From assembly GCF_035594765.1 (NCBI RefSeq), contig NC_085847.1:5704001-5768000 (forward strand): a stretch of 64,000 nucleotides of DNA, in the 5' to 3' direction. Made by a program: the position numbers. Shown here one piece after another: positions 12,001 to 15,000 of this stretch (its first letter is position 1; each line of letters starts with the position of its first letter). This stretch comes from Anolis carolinensis. Taxonomy: Eukaryota.

Positions 12001-15000
12001 TAATAAATGTATTTATAAATAAATATCGTAAATAAATAATAAAATAAATATGTATATACAGTGCTGTAGGGTTACGGCGTGATAAGTCTGTGAATCACAT
12101 TCTTGGAATCTGGCAAAACACCAGGCTGGACGCGCAAAGAGGACTCCCTCGAGTAGATAGCCTGGACGATGGTCCCCTGGAAGGCGACTCCTGGGCTCTA
12201 GAGTCCACTGCCCTCCCACCCAAGCCAGTGGCCGCCTTTTCCGCCTACCTTCTTGATGGTGTTGTGCTTGCTGTTGCCCCGGTCGTTGCTCTCGTTGTGC
12301 AGGATATCCATGGCGGTCTCTCGCTCCTTCAGCTTCAAGGCCTCGATCTCCGTCTTCAGCTCGTTCAGCTGCTCCTGGAGGTGCTTGCTCTTCTCCATGT
12401 ATTCCACCCTGGGAACAAAGAGAGAGACCCTCTCGTTGGCCGCTTGGTTTGGGTCGAAGCTGCCGAAGCACTGACCGGCGCCAATGAGCGGCACAACGCC
12501 AATCCCCAATTCAGAAGCTGACGTCAAATGATATTCTTGGCCCCGGGGCTGCGTCAGGAGAGAGAGGAGGACTCACTTCTCCTTCTCGATCTCCATGGAG
12601 AGCCTCTTCATGTCGGTGTCCTTGAAGTCAAAAGAGAGGCTCTCGCTGATGAGTCCGTAGGCGGGCAGGTCGGCAGGCAGGGCGGTGGCGGGACTCGCAC
12701 TCATGGCCTGCGTGTAGGAGGACTTGTTGGTGATCTCCAGGAGCTTCTGCTTGGCCCTCCGCTCCGAGTCCCGGGCCTCCTGCAGGTCCTGCTTGAGCTG
12801 GTCGGCCTCCTTGGCCCTCCGCTCGGACTCCTCGGCCATCTTGAGCGCCAGCATCTCGGCCTCCAGGACCTTCTGCTCCATCAGCCGCTTCTCCTCTTCC
12901 GTCCGGATGGCCGTGGCCTTGATGCGCTGCATCTCCTGCTCAGCCTCGGCTGCCTTCTGGGCCAGGAGCTTGGCCTCTTCTTCTGTGATTTGGGCCTTTT
13001 CGGCCAGCAGGTCCGCCGTTTCCTCCGAGCGCATCTGGGAAAACAAAACCATCTCCGCTGGTAAACAATGAGCCCCTCAGGGCTAGCTAGAAACGATCTC
13101 CACAATCTGACCTTTCTGCAAGCAGGGATGGAGGACCATTTCAGTCCAGAAACCCATACAGATGAATTACAAAATCTGTCAAATCCCCGCAAGGAGAAAA
13201 CCAGCCTCCCAAGAGTCTTACTAAGGCTTCGTTGGCCATGGTTGCCTCTTCTTTCAGCTGCAAGAGCCGCCGCTCCAACTCGTCCCGGGTCCGCTCGGCC
13301 TCCTCCCGCATTTGTTTCTCTCGCGCCAGGCGCTGCCGCTCCATCTGCTTGCGGGCCTTCTCCTCCCGGGCCTGGGCCTTCATCTGCTGGACCTCCAAGG
13401 AGTCGGCCTTCCTCCTCCTCATGAACAGGTCGTGGTTCCCGATGCAGAGCTGGAGGATCTGTCCCGGCGAGAGGAGAGAGGCACCGAGAAGAAGGGGTGG
13501 CCTCCTCCCAGCCCAAGGGGGTGTCCCTCGCCCCCCTCTTCTGGGCCTCTGGGGCACCTACCAGCTTGTTGACCCGCAGCTTGGAGGAGTTGAACTTGAA
13601 GACGTCAATCTTTTTATCCAGGGGCTTAATGGTGAACTGGAGGAGAAGGAAGGCATATACATAGAGAGAGAGAGATGGAGAAGGCAGAAAGCAAGGCCTT
13701 CTTCTCCGAGCTGGAGAAGGGGGAAAGGAGACCTCAGAGCTGGGGAATGGCCAAAGTAGGCCTTCTTCTCAGAGCTGGAGAAGGGAGGAAGTAGGCCTTT
13801 TTCTCAAAACCAAATAAGGGGAAAGTTGGACTTGTTTTCAGAGCTGGACAAAGGGGAAAGCAAGGCCTTCTTCTCAAAGGGGGAGTAGGGGGAAAGTAGG
13901 CCTTCTTGAAGATCTGGGGGCATGGCAATAATAATAATAATAATAATAATAATAATAATAATAATAATAATAATAATGTGCTGTGGTTCCAATCAATTCC
14001 TGTCGAAAGGGGACTCCCACCTACCTCCTTATCACTGTAGGAGACGTTGCGGATCTCGTTCCACGGGAAGGAGATCTTGGGGGTCAGCTTGTTTTCGGGA
14101 TCATAGATATGGAGGCCCAAGGCATCCACACCCAAGAGCAGCTCGGTCCCTTTCTTATTCTGAGGGGAAAAGAAGAGGGAAAAAATATGTTTCTCGTCAA
14201 ATCCTTTCCCGCAGAACAAAGTCGGAGCAAAATAGACGCAAAGGAGAATCCGCTGGTGCAACGGAGCCCACAAACGGGAGAGCCTTACCCGAATGGCAAA
14301 ATAGTTGACGCCGTACATCTCGAGGTCCTGGGCAATCTTGAGGTACTCCATCTCCGCCTCATCCCTGCAAGAGAAAGGAGGATCCCCACTCTCTCCTTCT
14401 CTCAAGGCTTCTCCTTAAGCGCCCCCCAATATCCACAATGCTGGCCAGGCCTCCATCTCACCTGGCTCTCCCCCGGTGCTGGCCGTACCAAGCGGTGATC
14501 CTTTCCTCCCACATTTCCGGGGTCATCTGGTAGAGGTTGATCACCTGGAAGGAGGAGGAGGGGCCCCAAAGGAAGGCATTTAGCACATTCTCTCAGTACA
14601 GACCAGTGCAGTCTGCTGGTCAGAACGAGGCCAAACTAGAAGCACAACGTCCTTACCCGTTTCGGAAGCAGTTCCTCCTGAGCAAGGAAGCCACGTTTGT
14701 GGACACCGGGGTCATAGTCTCCGTACTGCAGGGACACACACAAAAAGAACGTGAACAGAAGCCAACAATGATGCAAATTGGACGCTCTCCCTCCCAGGCT
14801 GGATGGACTCCCAAAAATCCACAATAATAATAATAATTGGACGAGAAAGAGCATCCAGACCACAATATGGAGCTGACCTTGGCCTGGACTGCGTAAGAAG
14901 CAAGAAGGACGGAGGCTTCAGGGGGACAGTAGATCTTCTCGTCCAAAATCTGCTTCTTGACCTGCAAGAAGAACAAGGAGCTGACCTTTTGTTGGCTGGA

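What the first reader, a model, noticed from the sequence alone, without database searches (positions are those of the whole stretch)
12577..13458. Three NF2 introns (10, 12, 13) lost while intron 11 is kept
Seen: 13222-13458 is one 237-nt exon, equal to human exons 10+11 (114+123), reading ...[11 protein letters not shown]... without a break. 12577-13034 is one 458-nt exon covering human exons 12+13+14 (218+106+128 plus 6 nt). Other NF2 introns are in the expected positions. Known: intron loss is rare in amniotes and usually attributed to recombination with reverse-transcribed mRNA (3'-biased, adjacent introns). Inference: at least two gene-conversion events, or one cDNA that retained intron 11, in a LINE-rich genome.
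Basis: partly seen in the sequence, partly recalled or inferred. Interest (0 to 1): 0.68.

Follow-up and report, generated by a model that had tools for sequence, protein, structure and literature searches.

The report
Three introns missing from compact NF2
A very compact, non-human copy of the tumour-suppressor gene NF2 lacks three introns that published comparisons show in other vertebrates, an ordinary though tidy case of lineage-specific intron loss that leaves the protein unchanged.

Summary
On the minus strand, 13458-13222 is one 237-nt exon and 13034-12577 one 458-nt exon. Both are open and have AG/GT flanks. Solved merlin chains align without a gap across the human exon 10/11 junction. 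The ERM_helical profile runs unbroken across the 12/13 junction. All 12 constitutive introns are GT-AG, and they sit at the other 12 of 15 human junction positions. Passages I read support 11 of those 15 human junctions; 4 are recalled.

Golovnina et al. 2005 (passages) give one shared exon structure for five mammals, zebrafish, Fugu and Xenopus. Chicken differs only at exons 15/16. So the absence here is a loss, not a gain elsewhere.

The mechanism is not settled. Exact removal and one adjacent pair fit recombination with spliced cDNA. The introns nearest the 3' end are kept, and the clustering is weak (P 0.07-0.08). Deletion of already tiny introns is a live rival. The gene is very compact (coding sequence in 5.3 kb, introns 97-388 nt), so large fused exons should be tolerated.

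The host species and the date of the loss could not be checked, because no vertebrate genome collection was available. This is a new example of a known process, of modest interest.

The parts
15957..16070 (-). NF2 exon 1, coding part, 114 nt, starting with ATG
   Evidence: ATG at 16070 and a GT donor after 15957.
15501..15626 (-). NF2 exon 2, 126 nt
   Evidence: AG/GT flanks. FERM_N, E = 2.8e-12.
15154..15276 (-). NF2 exon 3, 123 nt
   Evidence: AG/GT flanks, ending at cDNA 363. This agrees with human c.363+1. No Pfam hit on its own.
14878..14961 (-). NF2 exon 4, 84 nt
   Evidence: AG/GT flanks. FERM_M, E = 2.8e-05.
14657..14725 (-). NF2 exon 5, 69 nt
   Evidence: cDNA 448-516. This agrees with human c.448-2 and c.517-2. 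No Pfam hit on its own.
14462..14544 (-). NF2 exon 6, 83 nt
   Evidence: cDNA 517-599. This agrees with c.517-2 and c.600-3. No Pfam hit on its own.
14289..14364 (-). NF2 exon 7, 76 nt
   Evidence: AG/GT flanks. FERM_M, E = 1e-05.
14025..14159 (-). NF2 exon 8, 135 nt
   Evidence: AG/GT flanks. FERM_C, E = 1.3e-12.
13562..13636 (-). NF2 exon 9, 75 nt
   Evidence: ends at cDNA 885. This agrees with human c.886-18. No Pfam hit on its own.
13459..13561 (-). Intron 9, 103 nt, GT-AG, kept
13222..13458 (-). Fused exon, equal to human exons 10+11, 237 nt. No intron at the human c.999/1000 position.
   Evidence: merlin chains align at residues 296-339 without a gap; human c.999+1 is a splice donor.
13035..13221 (-). 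Intron 11, 187 nt, GT-AG, kept between the two fused exons
   Evidence: fold z-score -0.33; no Rfam family here.
12577..13034 (-). Fused exon, equal to human exons 12+13+14 plus 6 nt, 458 nt. No introns at the human c.1340/1341 and c.1446/1447 positions.
   Evidence: ERM_helical positions 31-120 match residues 2-91, E = 1.2e-14; human borders; no solved structure covers this part.
12409..12576 (-). Intron 14, 168 nt, GT-AG, kept
12249..12408 (-). NF2 exon 15, 160 nt
   Evidence: ERM_C, E = 3.1e-16.
11447..11494 (-). Alternative exon 16, 48 nt, with an in-frame TGA and AG/GT flanks
10730..10780 (-). Exon 17, coding part, 16 codons plus TAA

Best explanation
This is the NF2 (merlin) orthologue of a non-human vertebrate, most likely a reptile or bird, at its ancestral locus. 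Its lineage has lost three ancestral introns, numbers 10, 12 and 13 in human numbering, and has kept intron 11 between them. The protein is unchanged.

Shown: the introns are absent. The removal is exact at 10/11 and 12/13. Every other intron is in place. The gene is extremely compact.

Inferred from a paper: these introns are ancestral to bony vertebrates, so this is loss.

Inferred, and the least certain step: the mechanism was gene conversion of the chromosomal gene by spliced NF2 cDNA made by a germline reverse transcriptase. It acted in two tracts, one over intron 10 and one over introns 12-13. These could be two events or one patchy event.

Inferred: the fused 237-nt and 458-nt exons are tolerated because the flanking introns are only 103-187 nt. 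Splice sites can then be paired across the intron, and exon length is no longer limiting.
For: - Identity and locus: exon-by-exon Pfam hits to FERM_N, FERM_M, FERM_C, ERM_helical and ERM_C, in that order. Residues 1-45 of the 237-nt exon are 45 of 45 identical to merlin chain 1isn_A. Neighbours are SNORD125 with a beta-adaptin appendage exon, and a neurofilament-like gene. I recall these as neighbours of human NF2 on 22q12.
- Absence and precision: as set out under the observation check. Intron 12 would be a phase-2 intron, and its removal still leaves the frame and an equal-length profile match.
- Intact gene: 12 of 12 constitutive introns are GT-AG, and there is no N run inside NF2.
- Loss rather than gain: the Figure 7 legend of PMC1315344.
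- cDNA model: exact removal and the adjacent pair 12+13 are predictions of the reverse-transcriptase model as summarised in PMC3652778 (abstract and passages). One reverse-transcriptase-like relic lies in the window.
- Tolerance: PMC2614967 (abstract, sections 5 and 6) predicts that fused exons are harmless when the flanking introns are small. It places 432-526 nt in the problematic range only when introns are long. Here the 458-nt exon is flanked by introns of 187 and 168 nt.
Against: - The pattern is not 3'-biased: intron 14 and the introns flanking exon 16 remain.
- Clustering is only suggestive (P 0.07-0.08), and an adjacent pair is expected by chance in 35-37% of draws.
- Two tracts, or a patchy conversion, must be assumed to keep intron 11, which looks like an ordinary well-spliced intron.
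- The 6 extra bases lie in the linker around the former 13/14 junction. I place them there only from recall of the human protein. If they are an intron remnant, that loss was imprecise, which cDNA conversion does not predict.
- Ancestry rests on one paper's 2005 gene models. I could not see its figure or supplements.
- The host species is unknown.
- A single assembly cannot exclude a local assembly error.
Confidence: 0.5

Rival explanations
1. The same three ancestral introns were lost by genomic deletion, not through cDNA. Introns that had already shrunk to about 100 nt were removed by double-strand-break repair, using the short homology between the exon end plus donor and the acceptor plus exon start. 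Selection kept only in-frame outcomes.
For: - Every surviving intron but the last is tiny (97-388 nt). This shows a strong deletion trend at this locus, for which complete removal is the end point.
- The fused junctions read ...CAG|ATG... and ...AG|G.... These are the exon-side bases that would pair with an intron's terminal AG.
- Microhomology-linked intron loss is described for nematodes and flies in PMC3698931 (search listing only).
- The 6 extra bases near the former 13/14 junction could be a remnant of an imprecise deletion. Imprecise losses made up 5.3% of the mouse and rat losses in PMC3652778 (passage).
- The lack of 3' bias and the retained intron 11 need no special pleading if the events were independent.
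Against: - At least two of the three removals are exact to the base in a conserved coiled-coil region. Unaided deletion rarely achieves that.
- In the rodent data of PMC3652778, microhomology and imprecise cases were the minority.
- The lost introns themselves are gone, so their microhomology cannot be measured.
Confidence: 0.3
2. The introns exist in the animal and are missing only from this assembly, through transcript-derived reads, transcript-guided polishing or a local collapse.
For: Only that a single assembly is the sole source. The window also has three N runs elsewhere (28531-28676, 47065-47195, 49893-50074), so it is not gap-free.
Against: - 12 of 12 other introns of the same gene are present with intact GT-AG ends, including intron 11 between the two fused exons. 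cDNA contamination would not leave that mosaic.
- There is no N run or repeat at either fused exon.
Confidence: 0.04
3. The short structure is ancestral, and introns 10, 12 and 13 were gained in other vertebrates. Or this is a partly processed duplicate and not the orthologue.
For: None from my calls. The idea is possible only because I could not inspect outgroup genomes myself.
Against: - PMC1315344 reports the same exon structure in mammals, two teleosts and Xenopus, and nearly the same in chicken. Gain would need repeated insertion at identical sites.
- The gene sits beside the neurofilament-like and beta-adaptin/SNORD125 genes and keeps 12 introns. That does not fit a retrocopy.
Confidence: 0.03

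Closest known systems
Human and other vertebrate NF2 (merlin) genes, 17 exons, as compared by Golovnina et al. 2005 (PMC1315344)
   Same: Same domain order and the same positions for 12 of 15 coding junctions. The alternative exon 16 with its own stop is also present. Isoform 1 comes to 596 codons by adding up exon lengths, against 595 residues in human.
   Different: No introns 10, 12 or 13. The coding sequence spans 5.3 kb, against about 95 kb in human, 25 kb in chicken and 12.3 kb in Fugu. The exon 12-14 block is 6 nt longer and exon 15 is 3 nt shorter.
mRNA-mediated (reverse-transcriptase) intron loss as documented in rodents (Zhu and Niu 2013, PMC3652778)
   Same: Exact excision, several losses within one gene, and one adjacent pair.
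   Different: No 3' bias and a retained intron inside the cluster. Germline expression and processed NF2 pseudogenes could not be examined here.
Exon-definition constraint hypothesis (Niu 2008, PMC2614967), case 3: a fused exon flanked by small introns
   Same: A 458-nt fused exon lies between introns of 187 and 168 nt, and a 237-nt exon between introns of 103 and 187 nt. This is the configuration predicted to be harmless.
   Different: This is a hypothesis paper. Splicing of this gene was not observed here.
Reduction of intron number in insect merlin genes (PMC1315344)
   Same: A compact merlin gene with fewer, shorter introns.
   Different: Insect genes have 5-8 exons after wide-scale loss. 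Here only three introns are gone, and the protein is close to the mammalian one over the stretch I could compare (45 of 45 residues).

Membership tests
NF2/merlin orthologue | FERM N, M and C lobes, then the ERM alpha-helical domain, then the ERM C-terminal domain, in that order | tested here: met
   Searched exon by exon. FERM_N in exon 2, FERM_M in exons 4 and 7, FERM_C in exon 8. ERM_helical in the fused exons, and ERM_C in exon 15. Exons 1, 3, 5, 6 and 9 (5 of the 10 sent) gave no hit on their own, as expected for pieces of 23-41 residues.
NF2/merlin orthologue | Closer to merlin than to ezrin, radixin or moesin | tested here: met
   the best chains are merlin (1isn_A at 77.8 bits with 45 of 45 identical; 7lwh_A and 6cds_A at 71.1 bits). 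These rank ahead of ezrin (66.2 bits) and moesin (65.8 bits). Only the 237-nt exon was compared this way.
NF2/merlin orthologue | Conserved neighbourhood | tested here: inconclusive
   SNORD125, a beta-adaptin appendage exon and an intermediate-filament rod exon lie upstream. That these are neighbours of human NF2 is recalled, not tested. Downstream is a MIF-family exon, which I do not recall next to human NF2.
Intron loss via spliced cDNA (reverse-transcriptase model) | Exact removal with flanking coding sequence untouched | tested here: met
   Met for 10/11 and 12/13. Not decidable for 13/14, where the linker differs in length by 6 nt.
Intron loss via spliced cDNA (reverse-transcriptase model) | Adjacent introns lost together more often than chance | tested here: inconclusive
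   Introns 12 and 13 are adjacent and 10 is separate. P(at least one adjacent pair) = 0.35-0.37, and P(all three within four consecutive introns) = 0.07-0.08.
Intron loss via spliced cDNA (reverse-transcriptase model) | Bias towards the 3' end of the gene | tested here: not met
   Intron 14 and the introns around exon 16 are retained. PMC3652778 notes that this prediction is itself disputed.
Intron loss via spliced cDNA (reverse-transcriptase model) | Germline expression of the gene, and a reverse-transcriptase source or processed pseudogenes in the genome | not testable with these tools
   Only one 64-kb window is held. One reverse-transcriptase-like fragment was found by motif near 26355. 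There are no expression data.
Intron loss by genomic deletion or microhomology-mediated repair | Microhomology between the two splice junctions of the lost intron, or imprecise ends | not testable with these tools
   The lost introns are not available from any relative. The 6-nt length difference near 13/14 is compatible with this but not diagnostic.
Processed or semi-processed retrocopy | Most or all introns absent, a new genomic location, and a poly(A) tail or target-site duplications | tested here: not met
   12 introns are retained, and the gene lies beside the neurofilament-like and beta-adaptin genes.

The most novel reading that the evidence does not exclude
NF2 in this lineage may be a natural amniote test case for the idea that exon definition is what preserves vertebrate introns. 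On this reading, the introns first shrank to about 100-400 nt, splicing switched to pairing sites across introns, and the constraint on exon length lapsed. Introns then began to drop out one tract at a time. Intron 11 would survive either by chance or because a 695-nt fusion of all five exons would still be disfavoured. If so, relatives should show a graded series of shrinkage followed by loss, and neighbouring compact genes should show the same.
Probability: 0.25. Interest if true: 0.5.

Novelty: new member of a known kind. Interest (0 to 1): 0.33.

Why it matters
Intron loss is described as rare in vertebrates (abstract of PMC12357937, search listing). Most documented amniote cases come from mammals (PMC3652778). 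A gene with three losses, two of them exact to the base, with a retained intron inside the cluster and very short surviving introns, could help tell cDNA-mediated loss from deletion-mediated loss. It could also test whether short introns relax the limit on exon size. That depends on comparing relatives.

It has no evident consequence for merlin function, since the coding sequence is collinear with the known protein. I found no paper that reports it: 'merlin' + 'NF2' + 'intron loss' gave 0 papers. 'Intron loss' + 'squamate' gave 4 and 'intron loss' + 'Anolis' gave 32 (15 listed); none of the listed titles or abstracts concerns NF2. Public gene models of the host species would show the fused exons to anyone who looked.

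Tried and rejected
I then sent single exons.
- The 458-nt exon found no solved structure at E <= 0.001. Human residue numbers for that part therefore come from papers and arithmetic, not from an alignment.
- Paper searches that found nothing: three or more NF2 splice variants in one paper and NF2 with 'intron loss'.
- One search was badly framed. It did not require the term 'intron loss', returned 15,290 papers and gave nothing useful.
- Two look-ups of a recalled 2007 paper on intron loss in mammals failed because it is not held. What I know of it is recall only, and I do not use it as evidence.
- I looked for something special about intron 11. There is no Rfam family, the fold z-score is -0.33, and the splice signals are ordinary. 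I reject the idea that it is kept for a structured RNA, within the limits of these tests.
- The retrocopy and gain-elsewhere readings are rejected, as set out under the rival explanations.
- The bacterial and archaeal genome collection, the phage, plasmid and E. coli collections and the protein atlas were not used, because none holds vertebrate genomes.
- The closed protein searches and the metagenome and viral collections were not used. Cross-species comparison therefore stayed unchecked.
- Supplements of PMC1315344 (its alignment file) and of PMC3652778 were not seen. They may bear on exact intron positions and on how imprecise losses look.
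Full report
**What is there.** The region lies inside a gene on the minus strand. Reading it directly and checking it by script gives these coding exons:

| Exon (human numbering) | Coordinates | Length (nt) |
|---|---|---|
| 1 (coding part) | 16070-15957 | 114 |
| 2 | 15626-15501 | 126 |
| 3 | 15276-15154 | 123 |
| 4 | 14961-14878 | 84 |
| 5 | 14725-14657 | 69 |
| 6 | 14544-14462 | 83 |
| 7 | 14364-14289 | 76 |
| 8 | 14159-14025 | 135 |
| 9 | 13636-13562 | 75 |
| 10+11 | 13458-13222 | 237 |
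| 12+13+14 | 13034-12577 | 458 |
| 15 | 12408-12249 | 160 |
| 16 (alternative, own TGA) | 11494-11447 | 48 |
| 17 (16 codons plus TAA) | 10780-10730 | 51 |

All 12 of 12 constitutive introns begin with GT and end with AG, and exon 16 has AG/GT flanks. No N run falls inside the gene; the three runs lie at 28.5, 47 and 49.9 kb and were left alone.

**Identity.** I searched the model exon by exon and left out the joined step. Of the 10 exons sent, five matched Pfam on their own:
- exon 2: FERM_N
- exons 4 and 7: FERM_M
- exon 8: FERM_C
- the 237-nt exon: a weak ERM_helical start

The five that did not match (exons 1, 3, 5, 6, 9) are pieces of 23-41 residues. The 458-nt exon matched ERM_helical (E = 1.2e-14) and exon 15 matched ERM_C (E = 3.1e-16).

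Against solved structures, the 237-nt exon's best hits are merlin chains. 1isn_A is 45 of 45 identical, and 7lwh_A and 6cds_A are 43 of 44 identical at residues 296-339. These rank ahead of ezrin and moesin. The 458-nt exon has no solved relative at E <= 0.001.

Upstream on the window lie an intermediate-filament rod exon with a long K/E/S/P-rich tail, a beta-adaptin appendage exon, and SNORD125. I recall the neurofilament heavy chain and AP1B1 genes as neighbours of human NF2. This is therefore the NF2 orthologue in its usual neighbourhood, not a retrocopy. I do not take the window for human: the whole coding sequence spans 5.3 kb here against about 95 kb in human.

**The observation.** Human exon borders can be read from splice-variant names in clinical papers. 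I read only the passages that hold them:
- PMC9184572: c.363+1, c.448-2, c.517-2, c.1122+2, c.1340 (exon 12), c.1341-2, c.1446+1, c.1447-20 and c.1575-1
- PMC11816073: c.1341-2 again
- PMC10072238: c.600-3 and c.886-18
- PMC10744041: c.999+1, labelled a splice donor
- PMC1315344: the two isoforms share the first 579 residues, which fixes the end of exon 15

That supports 11 of the 15 coding junctions. The other four (114/115, 240/241, 675/676, 810/811) I know only from recall, and three searches for them found nothing.

In the window's own cDNA numbering, introns sit at 114, 240, 363, 447, 516, 599, 675, 810, 885, 1122, 1580 and 1740. These are the human positions, the last two shifted by +6 and +3. 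No intron sits at 999, 1340 or 1446.

The merlin chains align without a gap across residues 333/334. The ERM_helical profile covers 90 positions in 90 residues across codon 73 of the 458-nt exon, where the phase-2 intron 12 would lie.

**Loss or gain.** Golovnina et al. 2005 (PMC1315344) compared merlin gene structures. I read the abstract and the passages around Figures 6 and 7; the figures and supplements were not available. [quoted passage not shown] Fish, frog, bird and mammals therefore share these introns, and the simplest reading is that they are ancestral and were lost on the branch leading to this genome.

If the host is a non-avian reptile, the loss falls after the split from birds. 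The dating remains unchecked.

**How it happened.** Three models are current: recombination with spliced cDNA, plain genomic deletion, and break repair (PMC3652778, abstract and passages).

For cDNA:
- Two of the three removals are exact to the base, one of them at a split codon.
- Introns 12 and 13 are neighbours.

Against a simple version of the cDNA model:
- The most 3' introns are kept.
- Intron 11 survives inside the cluster although it has an ordinary strong donor and acceptor and no unusual fold (z = -0.33).
- The clustering is weak. With 15 or 16 introns, three random losses include an adjacent pair 35-37% of the time. They fall within four consecutive introns 7-8% of the time.

For deletion:
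- The locus shows a strong shrinkage trend. Eleven introns are 97-388 nt, and the largest of these is inflated by a 35-bp minisatellite and an (AAT)17 run.
- The fused junctions carry the exon-side bases that could pair with an intron's terminal AG.
- The extra 6 nt lie in the divergent linker around the former 13/14 junction. I place them there only from recall of the human protein and give no letters for it. They could be a remnant of an imprecise deletion.

I rank cDNA conversion in two tracts first (about 0.5 for the whole statement) and deletion second (about 0.3). Only relatives can decide between them.

**Why it is tolerated.** Niu 2008 (PMC2614967; abstract and sections 5 and 6) argues that exon definition limits exon length in vertebrate genes with long introns, with trouble reported from about 432 nt. 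Fused exons are harmless when the flanking introns are small, because splice sites are then paired across the intron. Here the 458-nt exon sits between introns of 187 and 168 nt, and the 237-nt exon between introns of 103 and 187 nt. That is exactly the permissive case. This is inference; splicing was not observed.

'LINE-rich genome' is not visible in this window. A motif scan found one reverse-transcriptase-like fragment near 26355. The AT-rich blocks read as simple repeats in translation. The losses are not 3'-biased. 'At least two events or one cDNA retaining intron 11' remains a fair statement of the options under the cDNA model, but deletion should be listed beside it.

**Novelty.** Lineage-specific intron loss is a known process. 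This is a new example of it, in a well-known gene. I found no report of it within the library searched:
- 'merlin' + 'NF2' + 'intron loss': 0 papers
- 'intron loss' + 'squamate': 4 papers, none about NF2 by title or abstract
- 'intron loss' + 'Anolis': 32 papers, 15 listed, none about NF2 by title or abstract

Interest is modest. It would rise if relatives showed a graded series from short introns to none.

Noticed in passing
window 10730-16070, minus strand: The whole NF2 coding sequence spans only 5.3 kb. Eleven introns are 97-388 nt, and the last (1468 nt) holds alternative exon 16. PMC1315344 gives about 95 kb for human, 25 kb for chicken and 12.3 kb for Fugu. This compaction is more striking than the intron losses themselves.
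   Followed up: partly
window 13671-13977 (NF2 intron 8): A 35-bp minisatellite of 6.9 copies (13671-13907) and an (AAT)17 run (13927-13977) make intron 8 the longest of the small introns. A looser copy of the minisatellite core lies at 50828-50847.
   Followed up: partly
window 11525-11755: A 104-bp tandem repeat of 2.2 copies at 87% identity lies just upstream of alternative exon 16.
   Followed up: no
window 54391-54488 (+) and 55431-55997 (+): SNORD125 at 67.3 bits lies next to an exon matching the beta2-adaptin appendage C-terminal sub-domain. This looks like an AP1B1-like host gene on the plus strand.
   Followed up: partly
window 36333-38237 (-) and 41630-42742 (-): A 635-residue open frame rich in K, E, S and P has no Pfam match. 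An intermediate-filament rod exon (Filament, E = 3.4e-16) lies upstream of it. Together they look like a neurofilament heavy-chain gene.
   Followed up: partly
window 5083-5535 (-): An exon matches the start of the MIF family (E = 2e-05) downstream of NF2. I do not recall this as a neighbour of human NF2, so it may mark a rearrangement. Not examined.
   Followed up: no
window about 26355 (+): A short reverse-transcriptase-like fragment was found by motif. It is the only one in the window.
   Followed up: no
window 12249-12408 and 12577-13034 (-): Exon 15 is 160 nt against 163 in human, and the exon 12-14 block is 6 nt longer than in human. Adding up exon lengths gives 596 codons for isoform 1, against 595 residues in human.
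   Followed up: partly
window 18000-21000, 44000-47000 and 60000-64000: Blocks with G+C of 29-41% sit among gene-rich stretches of 50-60%. Where I read them in translation (about 17.9-21 kb), they are mostly simple repeats.
   Followed up: no
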